64,000 nucleotides of DNA from a virus (Duplodnaviria > Heunggongvirae > Uroviricota > Caudoviricetes), in IMG/VR virus record IMGVR_UViG_3300033153_006865, positions 1,035 through 65,034 of that record; one strand, 5' to 3'. The translations under genes and the position numbers were made by a program. Of this stretch, positions 5,607-58,581 are shown in pieces (positions within the stretch are counted from its first letter, which is position 1; each line of letters opens with the position of its first letter). The notes under the pieces are model-generated. The model was not told where the DNA came from. It saw nothing but the letters and a program-made list of their open reading frames with translations, and made no database searches.

Positions 5607-6155
5607 ATGAAAAGTAAAAGATTAATATACGCATTAAAATGCCCCATCACTGATGAGATACACTACATTGGTAAAACAATACAGGGGATGACCAAGCCAC
5701 TACAACATCTGAGTAAAAGTCATTCTGATAAAGTAAAAGCTTGGGTAGGAGAGTTAAAAGAACTGGCACATGCCCCAAAGATTCAAATATTAGAAAACCT
5801 GAGTAGTGTTGATGACCTAGATAGTAGAGAAAGATATTGGATTAGAAAGAGTGTGGAGAATGGAGATTTACTTCTTAACGATTGTCTGGTATCCCCAATT
5901 ACCATAAGCAGGTCCCTTGAGAAATTGATGGGGAGCGATAGAGGTAGGGAGATGGAAGTGATCGGGAAATTTGTTAAGGAGAGAAGGAAATTAACCGGAC
6001 TCTCTCAAGAGAGGTTTGCAGATATGACAGGCATAGCCTTAACGGTTGTCCGTAAAATTGAACAAGGTAAATCAAATCTCAGTCTTAAAAGCCTTTTACA
6101 AACCCTCGAGATGTTTGGATGTACCATCGGTATACAGAAAATCAATAGGGATTAA
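5607..6155 (+). CDS. GIY-YIG endonuclease with C-terminal XRE-type HTH
   Basis: LIYALKCP...HYIGKT (GIY/YIG), RERYWIRK and LLN, plus C-terminal LSQERFADMTGIALTVVRKIEQGK helix-turn-helix. Confidence 0.7.
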   Translation: MKSKRLIYALKCPITDEIHYIGKTIQGMTKPLQHLSKSHSDKVKAWVGELKELAHAPKIQILENLSSVDDLDSRERYWIRKSVENGDLLLNDCLVSPITISRSLEKLMGSDRGREMEVIGKFVKERRKLTGLSQERFADMTGIALTVVRKIEQGKSNLSLKSLLQTLEMFGCTIGIQKINRD

Positions 6156-6333: not shown

Positions 6334-6669
6334 ATGATAAGAATCTATAATAATAGAATATTCATCCCAACTTTTACAGAACATGTAAAATGGCTGATTG
6401 AGAACTCAACCCACGAGTTGTACATAGTCTATTTAAACAGTAAGAACCTGGAGAAGGAGGAAGTTAATAAGCATAACTATATTCGACTATGTAAGGAAAT
6501 TGACAGGTGCAGGGAAAAACAAATTGGGGGAGATCAAATATTTATGGTGGAGGATATAGGGGAACTAACAATGACCCATACAAGAAACTCTTATCAAGAG
6601 GTGGGTATAAATTACAGCTCCTCTATTGAAGATTTTAGGCATCTCCGGTTTGGGAGTAAAGACTATTGA
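6334..6669 (+). CDS. hypothetical protein
   Basis: 111-aa ORF. Confidence 0.4.
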   Translation: MIRIYNNRIFIPTFTEHVKWLIENSTHELYIVYLNSKNLEKEEVNKHNYIRLCKEIDRCREKQIGGDQIFMVEDIGELTMTHTRNSYQEVGINYSSSIEDFRHLRFGSKDY

Positions 6670-6872
6670 CAAAAGAGCTAATCTTTTGGGTTGCCCTAAC
6701 TCTGTGACAAAATTAAATAAAACTACTCTTATTCTATTACAAGGATCGGCTGGGCAGTCCCCACCCTAACAACAATCCAATTAGATTATCTATTATCATA
6801 CTTATCAGGTTGGCCAGATCCAACCTATCCTAAGTGATACGCAATGGTTCGTAAATATCCGAATGTGACCCT

Positions 6873-6931
6873 TAGTAAACACATATTGCATAATAAACTA
6901 GTATGGGCTATTATGCAATATGTGTTTACTA
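6873..6931. repeat. perfect 21-23 bp inverted repeat with 13-nt spacer
   Basis: gtaaacacatattgcataata ... tattatgcaatatgtgtttac, immediately 3' of the convergent HNH gene. Confidence 0.85.
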
Positions 6932-6933
6932 CT

Positions 6934-7431
6934 TCAATATGACATGAAGTAATCACCCATTTCAATCTCTACTTCGGTTCTTCTGTCCTGGGCCTGCTGT
7001 AAAGTATCAAACACTTCTCGTATTACATTTTTTATGCGTAGAGTATATCTACTCCCTCTTTTCTCAATGCAATAAGTACCATCTTTGAATCTATCAGTAT
7101 CCTTCAGCCTATTGAGTCTGTGGGATATAATTTGGGAATTCACTAATCTGTTGTCTTCCTTAATTTTATTTATATGATCGGTAACATACCGTCTACCATC
7201 TGGATGAGACCTATGTGGGAGAAACGTGTTTGTAACCATATTATGGATAAACATATATCCCTTATGGGTATCAACTGTTTTATACCCATCCTTATGTACT
7301 CTTCCAACTAAATATCTCCCAGTAGATATATTCTTAATCCTACCTAAAGTACTTACTAGGTATACATTATCTAGCTTTGGTACAAAATCCCATTCTTCCA
7401 TAATGTAAATATAAGGATTATTTTTAAGCAC
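6934..7431 (-). CDS. HNH homing endonuclease (NUMOD4/HNH_3-type, I-HmuI-like)
   Basis: WDFVP..YLVSTLGRIKN..TGR...GY..V-H..V...F....V.HIN.IK.DN...N; opposite strand to neighbours. Confidence 0.7.
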   Translation of the reverse strand: MLKNNPYIYIMEEWDFVPKLDNVYLVSTLGRIKNISTGRYLVGRVHKDGYKTVDTHKGYMFIHNMVTNTFLPHRSHPDGRRYVTDHINKIKEDNRLVNSQIISHRLNRLKDTDRFKDGTYCIEKRGSRYTLRIKNVIREVFDTLQQAQDRRTEVEIEMGDYFMSY

Positions 7432-8778
7432 TCTTATTTATTTTACAAATATCCCGTGTAAAAATAAGAAATTGGGCTGTTTCTATGCTGTTTGGACAGT
7501 TTATATGTTGGGGAGATATATGTCTGTAACCCTTACTACTATTGGGCTGTATAAATTATATGCAAATAATTAGCAAGTATGAAAGTGAGATTGGGTGAAT
7601 TTTTATATGTTTAGTACCACCTACACCCAAACTCCCCCACCCTATTAGAGTTTTGCCCCAACCCCCTATACATTTGAAAAACCAACTTTTCAAAATTTCA
7701 TCCTACAAAACGGAACCACCTATTTTAGTATTTATATTTTATACTCTCTTAATATCTATATACTACCCATAAAGTATCTGAATACTAACCTATCTACTAC
7801 ACACACATAACTATAAAACTACCTACTATTTATGTACATATATACTATAATAATATATTAAATTTAATTTAATTGCGTTTTTATATTGTTTATCCAACTA
7901 ATTGTTGTATATTAGCATAAGCGAATGAGGGGAACGTCCCTATTAACATTTACTAAGTTCTTTTTATATTTTTACCCAATAAGCAAATAGCATACTAGGA
8001 CACAATAGACCAGTCGTCCCCATTGTGAGGACGTGAAATTAATGGTTTGGAAATCGACAAAGCTTTACAGTGTTGAGGGTAAAAATATTAAAAGATTATT
8101 TTAATTCTATACCGTTTTAATTAGGTTTATTGAATTAAAAGAATTATATTTACATAAGCGTTACAAAGGTAACCATTTAGTAAAATTGACATAGGGATAA
8201 CAATATTTTTTTAATAATAACTTGCAAATTATTTGCAGTTCTTATTTATTTTCCTTATATTTGTTAAGAGTTACAAAGGTGGCTTTAATAACATTAGTTC
8301 ATTGACATACCGATTAATCACTTAAGTAGTGACGGGATTAACATTAATACTTTAAGCTTTATTAATATGGGTGCAACGCTCATTTAAGTTTGACGAACTT
8401 ACGAAATGTAAGTTATTATATTAATGCCTTTCTTTATACGGTGGTTCTATTCCTTGAAAGGTCAATTAAGAGTCGTAAGGCTTGAAAGTTGGGGGTTTGG
8501 TTAAGTGTGGCGTAATGTCCAAGGTTTGATAATAAAGAACTGATAGGTAGCCAGGGGTTGAATTCCCTTCATTAGACGTATAGAGAAGACTATACGCAAC
8601 AAAATTATATAATCTGTGCCCTTGTAGTGGTGCTAAAGGATTGAAAGCAAAACTACAAAGCTTTATTGAACGTCATGTTTAATAAAGCCCTAAGTCGTTA
8701 GACAGAATAATATTTGGCAAAGTGTCAAAATCCGTATAGGGTTGAACAAAGAAAATTTTACAAATTAATATAATTGTT
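7432..8778. other. 1.35 kb ORF-free structured region (candidate origin, early-promoter hub or large ncRNA)
   Basis: No ORF of 60 aa or more on either strand. C-rich tracts 7620..7670, extreme AT tract 7700..7900, many local hairpins 7920..8720, repeated GTTACAAAGGT...TTGACATA modules. Confidence 0.5.
8187..8225 (+). promoter_or_regulatory. sigma70-like promoter candidate
   Basis: TTGACA, 17-nt spacer, T/A-rich -10; preceded by GTTACAAAGGT at 8160. A second copy sits at 8271 (GTTACAAAGGT) and 8304 (TTGACA). Confidence 0.3.
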
Positions 8779-9186
8779 ATGAAAAATTCTAAAAATAGTG
8801 CATCGAACGAAAATAAATTAACTGGGCAACAAAAATTAGAGCTTAGAATAGCTAATTTAAAAGAAAGGTCTAAGAAAGAGGGGCTAAACCTTAATGAAAC
8901 TAAGATATTAGCCAATGCTGAGGAAAAAATTGACTGTAAGAGTGCAAGTCGTGTATATAAAGTAATGGACGCTTTGAATAAAACTAAAAAGGGATCTTTA
9001 TTGGGTGGTTCTAAGTTCCCTAGCTTCAAAACGTTCAAAGGATTGCTACCAGAGGGTAAAACATTGTTTAGTGCATGGGATGGGTTCGGAGTTTTGGTAA
9101 AATGTAACAAAAAGGCTGCTATGAAGTCGAAAGTAGACGCTCAAGGCGGTGTTATAGTGGGGAATAATGAATTATTATCTGCATAG
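8779..9186 (+). CDS. hypothetical protein (first gene after the ORF-free region)
   Basis: 135-aa Lys-rich ORF. Confidence 0.5.
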   Translation: MKNSKNSASNENKLTGQQKLELRIANLKERSKKEGLNLNETKILANAEEKIDCKSASRVYKVMDALNKTKKGSLLGGSKFPSFKTFKGLLPEGKTLFSAWDGFGVLVKCNKKAAMKSKVDAQGGVIVGNNELLSA

Positions 9187-9196
9187 TTGTGTATTA

Positions 9197-9241
9197 GTGG
9201 GGTTTTACGTGTAAATGCTTAAGTGGTAACGTAAAACCCCC
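9197..9241 (+). terminator. hairpin (12-bp stem)
   Basis: ggggttttacgt-(18 nt)-acgtaaaacccc directly after the stop of the 8779 gene. Confidence 0.5.
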
Positions 9242-9801
9242 AAATTACCGTTAAAATAGTAATGTTTTAAAATGTATAAGACTATATTAATCGCTTGTAT
9301 AATGGTAATATTGTTACTAAGGTTTTTAGTCAGGAATTTAAAACAAATAAAAATAATCAAATCACATTCTTATTTTAAATGGCAATATAAGAGTGTATAA
9401 ACCCATACGATTTAGTTAGTGTTTACCTATTAGTATAAGTATGTCTTATAGGTAAAGAATGAACTTTGGTTTAATCAAGGATGGATCTTACTTGCCGCTA
9501 AATTTGTTAAAACTTTTATTATGTTAGATATACAAATATTTTTAAGCTTCCCTTTAAAGTATAACAAGGGAGTTATCTTAAGAGGGCATTTTATTGTCTT
9601 TACGAACACAGAAATTCTTGCTGGATTGAATTAATAGTTCCCCATTCGCTTAAGACGTGGTATTCAATTACAAATTTGGGCAAAGGCGTTACGCCACATT
9701 TAAGTCGATGGGGGACTATAACCCTACGTTTTAACAACTCAAAATCTATTCGTCTAGTTGTTGAGTTCAACGGCTATTAGCCATCATTAAATATTATTGT
9801 T

Positions 9802-10056
9802 ATGAGAGATATTAAAGAATTATTAGAAGTAGTCAGAGGAGTAATTATCTTGGATCACTTTAAATACGGACTATGTAAAGAATTGCGTGATTTAACGTGG
9901 AGGTCTGAAATCTCACTAAATGAGTCTTTTATAGTAGATGACTACTTCAGGGAAAATCTACCAGGAAGAATATTTCGCTACAATAATGAGCCAGCAGATG
10001 AACCAGACCAATTTTGTTGGAGGGTGGGGGAAAGGAGCCCAGGCTTAAATGGTTAG
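9802..10056 (+). CDS. hypothetical protein
   Basis: 84-aa ORF. Confidence 0.35.
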   Translation: MRDIKELLEVVRGVIILDHFKYGLCKELRDLTWRSEISLNESFIVDDYFRENLPGRIFRYNNEPADEPDQFCWRVGERSPGLNG

Positions 10057-12604: not shown

Positions 12605-13351
12605 ATGGAGTATTTAGAACAAGCAAAAAGTTTTTTAGAAACTACGAACACAACGTTTAAGGCAGAATATTTAGAACACGGTCTTCATTTCGAAGGTGAC
12701 AAAGAAAAAAGAGCTATTTACAAGATAACACTTTCAAATAAAGAAGGTGAGTTTTGTTTTGATTTTGGGCAAAGTATAGAGGACAGCTTTAAAAAAGAAA
12801 TGGGACCACAAAGGGATATATTGGAGACTATAAATGTTTATGCGGGGCTAGAGACAGCTTCTTCTTCATGTGGTCATTCCTTTAAGCTTAAAAAAGAGGA
12901 GGGGTTTAATCTTAGTGATGTCCGTTTTCAGGAATTAGCTTCTGATTTAGAAACAGAATACTACAGAAAAATAAGTAATAGGAATGAAAAATTACTTGAA
13001 AAGTTTAATAAAGGTGAAATTAGTCGTAATCTAATGAACGCAAAAAAAGACGGAGGAAATCTCGGATCTGGTGCTTTTACCCAATGCATTCAAAATGCAA
13101 TTAAAAGAGAATTAAACAAAGAAGTTGAAACAGCTGGTGAGTTCTTGCAAATTACACCGACTGAGTATGACGTACTCACTTGTTTAACTAAGTATGATCC
13201 AGAAACGTTTGAAGACTTTTGTAGTGAGTTTGGATATGATGAAGACAGTAGAAAGGCTGAAAAGATATACAAAGCAGTTGTAAACGAATACAATAATGTT
13301 GCGATGCTGTGGAATGACTCAGAAATTGAATTGTTAAGTGAGATACAATAA
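12605..13351 (+). CDS. hypothetical protein
   Basis: 248-aa ORF. Confidence 0.5.
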   Translation: MEYLEQAKSFLETTNTTFKAEYLEHGLHFEGDKEKRAIYKITLSNKEGEFCFDFGQSIEDSFKKEMGPQRDILETINVYAGLETASSSCGHSFKLKKEEGFNLSDVRFQELASDLETEYYRKISNRNEKLLEKFNKGEISRNLMNAKKDGGNLGSGAFTQCIQNAIKRELNKEVETAGEFLQITPTEYDVLTCLTKYDPETFEDFCSEFGYDEDSRKAEKIYKAVVNEYNNVAMLWNDSEIELLSEIQ

Positions 13352-13432
13352 CAGTCGTTTGAGCGACTCAAAACTTCATTAAGCTCAAAGCGTCCCACTT
13401 AGGTGGGGGTTGAACCATTAATAATCACTATC

Positions 13433-43958: not shown

Positions 43959-44183
43959 ATATGAGAGCTCTCTTCGGAGGGCTTTTCTTTTACTTATTAG
44001 TTGCAAATTTTTTGCAAGTGTTCACACTGGGCCTCTGTTCACGACCAAAATGGACACGTTTGTGGGAGCTGTTCATTATTTGTGCTTGTTCGAGAAACAT
44101 GAACAGTCACTTAAAATATACAAGAAAACTATAGGATAATCCATTTTCAATTCTTATATTTACCCCGAATCAAAAACTAACAA

Positions 44184-58348: not shown

Positions 58349-58387
58349 ATAAACAAAGAAATCCCCGAGAAACTTTCCCGAGGATTT
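58349..58387. repeat. terminator cassette, copy C
   Basis: ataaacaaagaaatccccgagaaactttcccgaggattt. Confidence 0.55.
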
Positions 58388-58581
58388 AAGTCAATTCTAA
58401 AAGTCCTATGAAAGGTCATTAGAATTATGTGTGGTAACAGCTATGTTGGAGTGTGAGTTTGAGCTTTGCCTCTAATGGGCCGCAATTCTAATTAATCCAA
58501 CTCTTCTACTGTTCAACCACGGATCAAATGTAGTTATAATTTATTTAATCTCCAAATTTCATATGAAGATTACCAATACTA

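What the first reader, a model, noticed from the sequence alone, without database searches (positions are those of the whole stretch)
7432..8778. 1.35 kb ORF-free, repeat- and hairpin-rich region: origin/early-promoter hub or large structured ncRNA
This is the only kb-scale stretch without ORFs in an otherwise gap-free genome, sitting at a strand-switch. It holds C-rich tracts (ccacctacacccaaactcccccaccc...gccccaaccccc at 7617..7668), a 200-bp AT-rich tract (at least 85% AT) with tacta/ctact iterations (7700..7900), and two copies of a GTTACAAAGGT...TTGACATA module (8160/8187 and 8271/8304) resembling sigma70 -35 elements. It also has many 5-7 bp local hairpins (e.g. cgtatag/ctatacg at 8577..8598 and ctttatt/aataaag at 8661..8687). 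An origin or early-promoter cluster is the conservative reading. A GOLLD/ROOL-type large ncRNA is the exciting alternative.
Basis: partly seen in the sequence, partly recalled or inferred. Interest (0 to 1): 0.65.

Follow-up and report, generated by a model that had tools for sequence, protein, structure and literature searches.

The report
Phage operon-boundary promoter region, no giant RNA
The 1.35 kb gene-free stretch is most likely an ordinary regulatory spacer of a roughly 130 kb phage of a Bacteroidota host, with one strong host-type promoter, a long untranslated leader and a mobile endonuclease gene next door, and nothing supports a giant structured RNA or a classical replication origin.

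Summary
The gap 7432..8778 is real and is the largest ORF-free stretch in the window. Several details of the finding fail. AT content of 7700-7900 is 77%, not 85% or more. The TACTA iterations are at chance level. The strand switch is one mobile HNH homing-endonuclease gene.

Start-codon contexts (no Shine-Dalgarno, A at -3/-12/-13) and promoters of the form TTTG-N20-TAnnTTTG point to a Bacteroidota host, so the sigma70 reading of TTGACA does not apply. A 23-bp hairpin (6873-6931) ends the upstream operon. The only strong promoter in the gap is P3 (8232-8263, + strand). A palindrome overlaps its -33 element, and that composite is common in Bacteroidota genomes and viruses. Two degenerate in-register copies, P1 and P2, lie upstream.

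P3 sits 515 nt before the first ORF, which is unusually far. Rfam finds nothing, folding z-scores are modest, and no homologous DNA turned up. There are no iterons, DnaA boxes or skew inflection.

Best reading: an operon-boundary promoter region with a long leader. Two things stay unexplained: a 300-nt G-depleted tract (7601-7900) and the leader. Interest is low to moderate.

The parts
6873..6931 (.). 23-bp near-perfect hairpin between the convergent 111-aa ORF (+) and the HNH gene (-). Predicted bidirectional terminator that ends the upstream plus-strand operon.
   Evidence: dG -32.4 kcal/mol, z -9.4, 0 of 200 shuffles as stable. Sequence.
6934..7401 (-). Freestanding NUMOD4/HNH homing-endonuclease gene (155 aa from the ATG; the longest ORF runs to a GTG at 7431).
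   Evidence: PF07463 NUMOD4, E 2.8e-10; phrog_959 HNH endonuclease, E 3.5e-17. JGI gene call; no close homologue elsewhere.
7406..7437 (-). Promoter-like site for the HNH gene. The -7 box TATATTTA lies just upstream of the ATG at 7401.
   Evidence: 10.0 bits, second-best site in 7300-8900. TTATATTTA at 7406-7414 (-).
7558..7578 (.). Upstream copy of the 21-nt palindrome ACTTGCAAAnnnTTTGCAAGT (3 mismatches).
   Evidence: 3 sites in 64 kb against 0.07 expected; inverted repeat with 8220-8237.
7601..7900 (+). G-depleted tract (15 G against 69 C in 300 nt) containing the C-rich block 7617-7668 and the most AT-rich 200 nt of the window. The complement carries a G-run cluster at 7626-7666. Function unknown.
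   Evidence: No promoter predicted to transcribe it. Unstructured.
7885..7945 (+). P1: degenerate promoter-like module (ATTG-N19-TATATTAG, then CATAAGCG, then hairpin GGGGAACGTCCC).
   Evidence: in-register alignment with P2 and P3; 77 nt at 70% identity to P2, E 0.02. Not among the best PWM sites of 7300-8900 (all listed sites after the HNH promoter score 2.4 bits or less).
7959..8106 (+). Long stem-loop: a 19-bp stem (7959-7977 with 8077-8095) encloses a branched domain and is followed by a T-rich run. Possible terminator of a P1 transcript, or a DNA-level inverted repeat.
   Evidence: I3, 95% complementary; fold; z -3.8 on + and -4.5 on -.
8121..8200 (+). P2: degenerate promoter-like module (TTAG-N21-TATATTTA, CATAAGCG, hairpin GTTACAAAGGTAAC, ATTGACATA).
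   Evidence: PWM -0.2 bits.
8220..8240 (.). Palindrome ACTTGCAAATTATTTGCAGTT overlapping the -33 element of P3.
   Evidence: The composite with a -7 box recurs in 27 IMG/VR contigs, almost always before an ORF, and in at least 120 genome loci that are mostly Bacteroidota.
8232..8263 (+). P3: strong host-type promoter, TTTG-N20-TATATTTG. Predicted transcription start near 8268-8272.
   Evidence: 5 perfect sites against 0.63 expected, all intergenic and correctly oriented; 20.8 bits with a matrix trained without it, best untrained plus-strand site in 64 kb.
8264..8778 (+). Predicted 515-nt untranslated leader. It has a 5'-proximal hairpin at 8267-8286, a weak terminator-like hairpin at 8367-8383, and hairpins at 8622-8658 and 8660-8688. 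It is enriched in TTAAG and TTGAA.
   Evidence: No credible small ORF. z -2.5 overall.
8779..9186 (+). First ORF of the transcription unit: a 135-aa orphan protein. One homologue cluster at 55% identity, from a marine metagenome (a TARA-named scaffold among its contigs).
   Evidence: No Pfam or PHROG hit. AlphaFold model unusable, pLDDT 48.8.
9197..9241 (+). 12-bp hairpin immediately after the 135-aa ORF. Possible terminator or attenuator.
   Evidence: dG -19.7, z -3.0.

Best explanation
The gap is the regulatory spacer at the start of a plus-strand transcription unit in a roughly 130 kb phage whose host is probably a member of Bacteroidota.

Proposed mechanism
1. The upstream plus-strand operon stops at the 23-bp hairpin 6873-6931.
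2. A freestanding HNH homing-endonuclease gene with its own small promoter has settled on the minus strand.
3. Host sigma-A RNA polymerase starts at promoter P3 (8232-8263). P3 has an A/T-rich upstream region and a palindrome over its -33 element. That palindrome could be an upstream promoter element or the site of a dimeric regulator.
4. The transcript begins with a small 5' hairpin, runs through a 515-nt hairpin-containing leader, and then enters a string of small orphan genes starting at 8779.
5. P1 and P2 are decayed or weak duplicates of the same promoter module.

What is shown: the gap, the terminator-grade hairpin, the HNH gene, the motif statistics, and the taxonomic distribution of the promoter/palindrome composite.

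What is inferred: host phylum, promoter activity, transcription start, leader extent, and any regulator binding.

Not explained: the 800 nt between the HNH gene and P3, including the G-depleted tract.
For: Host phylum
- Only 7 of 59 upstream regions carry an SD-like motif. A dominates at -3 (39 of 59), -12 (42 of 59) and -13 (37 of 59). This matches the Bacteroidetes initiation signature and the -33/-7 TTTG/TANNTTTG promoter described in PMC6847099.

Promoter P3
- TTTG-N20-TAnnTTTG occurs 5 times against 0.63 expected, with 0 of 100 shuffles reaching 5.
- The other four sites lie after the end of the upstream gene in the right orientation; three sit 5-28 nt before a start codon, and the fourth (58556-) is followed by about 170 nt without an ORF.
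- P3 scores 20.8 bits with a matrix trained on nine other sites.

Boundary
- The 6873-6931 hairpin has z -9.4.

Palindrome
- 3 sites against 0.07 expected.
- The palindrome plus promoter composite occurs in 27 IMG/VR contigs, nearly always closely upstream of an ORF.
- Roughly 70 of the 80 genome loci listed are Bacteroidota by record title.

Modules and flank
- P1, P2 and P3 align in register.
- The HNH gene is identified.
- Downstream genes are small orphans on the plus strand.
Against: - Only one of the three modules scores as a promoter, so 'array' may be overstated.
- P3 lies 515 nt from the ORF. Other promoters of the type, here and in other viral contigs, lie 5-56 nt from theirs. The leader therefore needs its own explanation.
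- About 800 nt (7440-8230) lies outside any predicted transcript and has the most extreme strand asymmetry in the window.
- There are no transcription data and no alignable relatives, so nothing is validated by conservation.
Confidence: 0.55

Rival explanations
1. Replication origin, possibly transcription-primed. The AT-rich, strand-asymmetric tract 7601-7900 would act as an unwinding element. Its G-run-rich complement (7626-7666) would stabilise an R-loop made from a neighbouring promoter, as in T4 oriF/oriG, the T7 primary origin or ColE1.
For: - The most AT-rich windows (7721-7920 at 80%, and 8051-8290) and the most G-depleted 300 nt of the window lie here.
- The G-run cluster on the minus strand is one of only about four G-run clusters or G4-capable sites found in 64 kb.
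- Promoter-like modules are adjacent.
- An analogous C-rich plus GT-rich block precedes the same promoter type in L025.
Against: - No iterons or tandem repeats.
- TACTA is at chance.
- No DnaA box with 1 mismatch or fewer in the gap.
- Cumulative GC skew shows only a local dip; the window's extremum is at about 47 kb, where transcription switches strand.
- No scoring promoter reads leftward through the tract to make a G-rich RNA.
- Replication genes lie 40 kb or more away.
Confidence: 0.13
2. One or more novel non-coding RNAs. Candidates are the 515-nt P3 transcript (8270-8778), acting as a cis-regulatory leader or a stable RNA, and a roughly 185-nt P1 RNA (about 7922-8106) ending in the 19-bp stem followed by a U-rich tail.
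For: - The promoter-to-ORF distance is anomalous for this promoter type.
- 8600-8759 has z -3.8 to -5.2.
- 8612-8700 has z -3.65.
- 7900-8300 has z -3.7.
- GC skew of 8001-9000 matches the transcribed plus strand.
- TTAAG and TTGAA are enriched.
Against: - No Rfam match, even at E up to 10.
- 8268-8400 has z -1.2, 8400-8600 has z +0.3, and the whole leader -2.5.
- The structured windows score similarly on both strands.
- 4% of windows sampled across 17000-47000 (predominantly coding) reach z below -3.
- The P1 RNA has z -2.2, and P1 does not score as a promoter.
- No homologue was found, so no covariation test was possible.
- The motif enrichments were spotted by eye and are post hoc.
Confidence: 0.17
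3. Mostly non-functional DNA. It would be spacer and scars accumulated at a hotspot of homing-endonuclease traffic, with a promoter duplicated and decaying, and only P3 under selection.
For: - Two likely homing-endonuclease genes lie on the left: GIY-YIG-like/HTH at 5607-6155 and HNH at 6934-7401.
- P1 and P2 look like decayed copies of P3.
- The composition is a mosaic.
- No conservation was found in any collection searched.
Against: - Phage genomes are compact, and this is the only kb-scale gap in the window.
- The extreme G depletion is hard to obtain by neutral decay.
- TAAGnGTTACAAAGGT is kept with only its degenerate position differing, and ATTGACATA is kept exactly, in two copies whose surroundings have diverged to 77% identity.
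Confidence: 0.15

Closest known systems
Bacteroidota sigma-A promoters (-33 TTTG / -7 TAnnTTTG), with SD-less, A-rich translation initiation (PMC6847099)
   Same: P3 matches the consensus exactly with a 20-nt spacer. The window's genes show the A -3/-12/-13 signature and lack SD sequences.
   Different: P3 carries a palindrome over its -33 element and lies 515 nt from its ORF. Activity has not been measured.
Early-promoter region at the left end of coliphage T7 (tandem host promoters A1, A2, A3, then a long processed leader before gene 0.3). From general knowledge, not tested here.
   Same: A roughly 1 kb ORF-free stretch, tandem promoter modules 110-240 nt apart, a hairpin-bearing leader, and then small orphan genes.
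   Different: Only one module scores as a promoter. Nothing shows this is a genome end. The promoter type and host are different. Early timing is inferred only.
Freestanding homing-endonuclease genes of T4-like phages (seg/mob genes; PMC2988022, surfaced but not read)
   Same: A small HNH/NUMOD4 ORF with its own promoter sits in an intergenic region on the strand opposite its neighbours. A second, GIY-YIG-like gene lies nearby.
   Different: No target site or homing event can be shown, and no close homologue exists.
GOLLD and ROOL large phage-associated ncRNAs
   Same: A large ORF-free stretch in a phage genome.
   Different: No covariance-model match, weak and patchy structure signal, and no conservation.
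Transcription-primed origins (T4 oriF/oriG, the T7 primary origin, ColE1 RNA II). From general knowledge.
   Same: Promoter-like elements lie next to an AT-rich, strand-asymmetric tract with G runs on one strand.
   Different: No promoter is oriented to make the G-rich RNA, and there is no replication evidence.

Membership tests
GOLLD / ROOL / other Rfam large ncRNAs, group I and II introns, HEARO | Match to the family covariance model | tested here: not met
   at gathering thresholds the only hit in the window is a Pistol ribozyme at 13353-13414; at E up to 10 over 7300-8900 there are only three noise hits of 14-16 bits.
Large structured ncRNA (generic) | Thermodynamic stability well beyond shuffles along most of its length, on one strand | tested here: not met
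   most 160-nt windows have |z| below 2. The peaks (7955-8100, 8600-8759) are about -3.8 and occur on both strands. The sampled background windows (17000-47000, predominantly coding) reach z below -3 in 4% of cases.
Large structured ncRNA (generic) | Conservation with covariation in relatives | not testable with these tools
   No homologous DNA in the phage collection, in IMG/VR, in 12 + 32 related loci, or in the metagenome pattern scan.
Bacteroidota sigma-A promoter | -33 TTTG and -7 TAnnTTTG about 19-21 nt apart, upstream of a gene on the same strand | tested here: met
   8232-8263. PWM 20.8 bits. The composite motif occurs mostly in Bacteroidota genomes.
Bacteroidota sigma-A promoter | Transcription initiation demonstrated | not testable with these tools
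   No transcriptome data available.
Sigma70 (-35 TTGACA / -10 TATAAT) promoter cluster | More -35/-10 pairs with 16-18 nt spacing than chance | tested here: not met
   14 against 13.8 and 85 against 78.6. The two ATTGACATA motifs have no -10 partner.
Iteron / DnaA-box replication origin | Three or more direct repeats (iterons), or DnaA boxes | tested here: not met
   only two-copy short repeats. TACTA at chance; no DnaA box in the gap.
Iteron / DnaA-box replication origin | AT-rich unwinding element | tested here: inconclusive
   77-80% AT, the highest in the window, but only moderately above the 65% genome average.
Iteron / DnaA-box replication origin | Global skew inflection at the site | tested here: not met
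   a local dip only. The extremum at about 47 kb coincides with the transcription strand switch.
Freestanding homing endonuclease (HNH/NUMOD4) | HNH or NUMOD domain in a small intergenic ORF | tested here: met
   PF07463, E 2.8e-10; phrog_959, E 3.5e-17.
Solitary CRISPR repeat / RNA anti-CRISPR (Bacteroidota type II-C repeat mimic) | Similarity to a host CRISPR repeat above chance | tested here: not met
   the hairpin 8621-8660 scores 20-25 against the B. fragilis, F. psychrophilum and F. columnare repeats (sequences from PMC6390457 and PMC5395568). Chance hits elsewhere in the window score 27-32.

The most novel reading that the evidence does not exclude
The gap holds something beyond a promoter. 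One possibility is that the 515-nt P3 transcript is a new phage leader or ncRNA class. The TTAAG/TTGAA-rich, hairpin-studded RNA would regulate or protect the first genes of the unit. The other possibility is that the G-depleted tract with its G-run complement, together with the neighbouring promoter modules, forms a transcription-primed origin of a Bacteroidota phage. A compositionally analogous block precedes the same promoter type in the unrelated viral contig L025.
Probability: 0.15. Interest if true: 0.6.

Novelty: new member of a known kind. Interest (0 to 1): 0.25.

Why it matters
If the reading is right, this is routine phage genome architecture and should not be listed as a candidate giant RNA. 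Three points are useful.
- The window's regulatory code is Bacteroidota-type, so sigma70-based readings of this genome will mislead.
- A palindrome-bearing promoter composite recurs across Bacteroidota genomes and their viruses and may mark a shared regulator or an upstream promoter element.
- The 515-nt leader and the G-depleted tract are concrete, cheap targets if transcriptomes of related marine or freshwater Bacteroidota phages become available.

Tried and rejected
RNA families and hidden genes
- Rfam at gathering and permissive thresholds: nothing in the gap.
- tRNA scan: none.
- Hidden or frameshifted ORF: six-frame translation and a 20-aa ORF list show nothing credible.

Searches for homologous DNA
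- blastn against 50,697 phage records: no match.
- Exact 22-mer in IMG/VR: none.
- Relatives of the 135-aa ORF: one cluster only, on 1.4-1.6 kb contigs with just 139 nt upstream, which do not align.
- Relatives via the 186-aa protein: 12 contigs, with different gene order and no similar DNA.
- Relatives via the GIY-YIG/HTH protein: 32 IMG/VR loci, mostly with no long gap and no palindrome.
- Metagenome scan for GTTACAAAGGT-N10-24-ATTGACATA: 15 unrelated hits, and the source contigs themselves were not returned.

Ideas abandoned
- The HTH protein at 5607-6155 as cognate repressor of the palindrome. The protein looks like a mobile GIY-YIG endonuclease and co-occurs with the motif in only 1 of 32 loci.
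- HNH cassette 'baggage'. No HNH homologue exists to compare with.
- Contig ends as evidence of a genome terminus. The 126.5 kb and 3.8 kb contigs simply add up to the 130.3 kb contig.
- CRISPR type II-C repeat mimicry of hairpin 8621-8660: below chance hits.
- Structure of the 135-aa protein: pLDDT 48.8, unusable, so no fold search was run.
- Long promoter-to-ORF gaps in other viral contigs: an artefact of my greedy ORF picking, since those stretches are coding.

Full report
SOURCE AND SETTING

The window is identical over its first 11 kb to JGI metagenome contig Ga0366832_1000080 (126.5 kb), and 6344-9226 is identical to a 2.9 kb contig from a sister sample. A 3.8 kb contig from the same sample continues where the large one stops. 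The two add up to the 130.3 kb contig recorded for the same proteins. The genome is therefore about 130 kb, and the contig ends say nothing about a physical terminus.

The window encodes DNA polymerase, helicases, primase, ligase, thymidylate synthase and several HNH endonucleases. The closest isolates share only about 36% identity in the polymerase. This is a phage without cultured relatives.

CHECKING THE OBSERVATION

The gap is real. 7432-8778 is the largest ORF-free stretch, and the next largest is 9187-9801. All six frames are full of stops. The C-rich block, the two copies of TAAGnGTTACAAAGGT and of ATTGACATA, and the named hairpins are all present.

Other details do not hold.
- 7700-7900 is 77% AT, and the maximum for any 200-nt window is 80%.
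- TACTA occurs 5 times against 3.2 expected, and 182 of 1000 shuffles do as well.
- There are no tandem repeats or iteron families.
- Sigma70-type sites are at chance.
- The 'strand switch' is one minus-strand gene, a NUMOD4/HNH homing endonuclease at 6934-7401, inside a long plus-strand array.

WHICH REGULATORY CODE APPLIES

Upstream of 59 start codons only 7 have an SD-like motif. A dominates at -3, -12 and -13. This is the signature described for Bacteroidetes, whose promoters have -33 TTTG and -7 TANNTTTG elements (PMC6847099).

TTTG-N20-TAnnTTTG occurs five times in the window against 0.63 expected, with 0 of 100 shuffles reaching five. All five sites are intergenic and point at a downstream gene. 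A weight matrix trained on nine other sites ranks 8232-8263 as the best untrained plus-strand site in 64 kb, at 20.8 bits. The next best site in the gap is the HNH promoter at 7437-7406 on the minus strand, at 10.0 bits.

ANATOMY, LEFT TO RIGHT

1. 6873-6931 is a 23-bp hairpin (dG -32.4, z -9.4) between the convergent 111-aa ORF and the HNH gene. It is a predicted bidirectional terminator.
2. The HNH gene follows, with its own promoter.
3. 7558-7578 is a degenerate copy of a 21-nt palindrome.
4. 7601-7900 has 15 G against 69 C, the most asymmetric 300 nt in the window. It contains the C-rich block, whose complement is a G-run cluster. It is unstructured, and no predicted promoter transcribes it.
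5. Three modules align in register: P1 at 7885-7945, P2 at 8121-8200 and P3 at 8232-8312. Each has a -7-like box, then (C/T)(A/T)TAAG(C/A)G, then a small hairpin. P1 and P2 share 70% identity over 77 nt. P2 and P3 share 77% over 44 nt. Only P3 scores as a promoter.
6. Between P1 and P2, a 19-bp stem (7959-7977 with 8077-8095) closes a branched hairpin and is followed by a T-rich run.
7. The palindrome ACTTGCAAATTATTTGCAGTT overlaps the -33 element of P3. The pattern has 3 sites in 64 kb against 0.07 expected; the third is intergenic at 43999-44019.
8. From about 8270, a 515-nt ORF-free leader runs to the 135-aa orphan ORF at 8779. A 12-bp hairpin follows the ORF.

THE PALINDROME AND PROMOTER COMPOSITE ELSEWHERE

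The core TTGCAAAnnnTTTGCA occurs twice in the only known relative of the 135-aa gene, from a marine metagenome (a TARA-named scaffold among its contigs). The full composite, palindrome plus N18 plus TAnnTTTG, occurs in 27 IMG/VR contigs. It is almost always intergenic and close upstream of an ORF. The apparent long gaps in that set were artefacts of my ORF picking.

Roughly 70 of the 80 titles listed are Bacteroidota. The composite is therefore a common Bacteroidota promoter architecture. This supports both the host assignment and the promoter call. It also makes a phage-specific operator less likely than a general upstream element or a widespread regulator site.

One IMG/VR contig, L025, carries a homologue of the neighbouring GIY-YIG-like/HTH protein. 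It is followed by a roughly 930-nt ORF-poor stretch with a C-rich block, a GT-rich and C-poor block, and the same promoter type. However, 31 other homologues of that protein sit in unrelated contexts. I read the protein as a second mobile endonuclease, not as the regulator.

TESTING THE LARGE-ncRNA READING

Rfam gives nothing in the gap, even at E up to 10. Sliding 160-nt windows are mostly within 2 SD of shuffles. The two peaks, 7955-8100 and 8600-8759, reach about -3.8 with 150 shuffles and score similarly on both strands. 4% of windows sampled across 17000-47000 (predominantly coding) also reach z below -3. The G+C-richer core 8400-8600 has z of +0.3, and the whole leader -2.5.

No homologous DNA was found in any collection, so covariation could not be tested.

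A resemblance between hairpin 8621-8660 and Bacteroidota type II-C CRISPR repeats was tested against published repeat sequences (PMC6390457, PMC5395568). It scored below chance hits elsewhere in the window.

TESTING THE ORIGIN READING

There are no iterons, no DnaA boxes and no global skew inflection. The AT-rich, asymmetric tract next to promoter-like modules resembles the layout of transcription-primed origins. But no scoring promoter reads in the direction that would make the G-rich RNA. This reading remains possible but unsupported.

VERDICT

The best-supported reading (about 0.55) is an operon-boundary regulatory region. It consists of a terminator, a homing-endonuclease insertion, an unexplained spacer, one strong Bacteroidota-type promoter with two decayed duplicates, and a long leader into a run of small orphan genes.

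Rival readings:
- novel leader or small RNAs, about 0.17
- mostly non-functional spacer at a homing-endonuclease hotspot, about 0.15
- replication origin, about 0.13

Two features are unusual and unexplained: the 515-nt promoter-to-ORF distance and the G-depleted tract. They keep the finding from being entirely trivial, but nothing here supports a GOLLD/ROOL-like discovery.

Noticed in passing
window 13353-13414 (+): Pistol ribozyme (RF02679, 61.5 bits, E 9e-9) immediately after the stop of ORF 12605-13351. It is the only Rfam hit at gathering thresholds in the window.
   Followed up: no
window 9187-9801, especially 9634-9719 (+): The second-largest ORF-free gap. It contains an 86-nt long-stem element (dG -33.1, z -4.7) just before the 84-aa ORF at 9802.
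   Followed up: partly
window 42334(+), 57993(-), 58357(-), 30820(+) versus 8232(+), 17859(+), 26787(+), 31350(+): There are two promoter sub-classes. One has a near-identical 'TTTGTTTATA...ATTATTCTTA' body, and in three of the four listed members (42334+, 57993-, 58357-) it is preceded by a terminator-like hairpin of the ccgagaaa..tttctcgg type. The other has a -33 element of the form yTTGCA. They may mark different temporal classes.
   Followed up: partly
window 58380-58556 (-): A perfect promoter at 58556-58525 is followed by about 170 nt without an ORF before the next promoter at 58357. This could be a small RNA.
   Followed up: no
window 43999-44110: The best copy of the palindrome (AGTTGCAAATTTTTTGCAAGT) lies after a terminator-like hairpin. 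It is followed by several TGTTCA repeats in both orientations, which may be another operator set.
   Followed up: no
window 5607-6155 (+): A 182-aa protein with a GIY-YIG-like N-terminus (IYALKCP..IHYIGK; R74, E75 and N91 invariant between the window protein and its L025 homologue, the only two sequences aligned) and a C-terminal HTH_3 domain. It has 32 homologues in IMG/VR in varied contexts and is likely a second mobile endonuclease beside the gap.
   Followed up: partly
L005 5377-6140 and L007 3620-4275 (relatives found via the 186-aa protein): Gaps of 650-760 nt with CCTGGCAGC-type repeats, three copies of the hairpin ccaggttagtcgtgtttcctgg and a tRNA-like sequence. This is a different kind of non-coding block from the one studied here.
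   Followed up: no
L012 250-1580: Four copies of TTGTAACTTTTTrAAA-N-ATCGTTATAT, apparently a phage-specific promoter motif, together with a tRNA-like sequence and an HNH-like ORF.
   Followed up: no
L025 7900-8826 (IMGVR_UViG_3300040801_002794): A roughly 930-nt ORF-poor stretch after a GIY-YIG/HTH homologue. It has a C-rich block (8122-8150), a 125-nt GT-rich and C-poor block (8247-8370), and two Bacteroidota-type promoters. This is an analogous architecture without sequence homology.
   Followed up: partly
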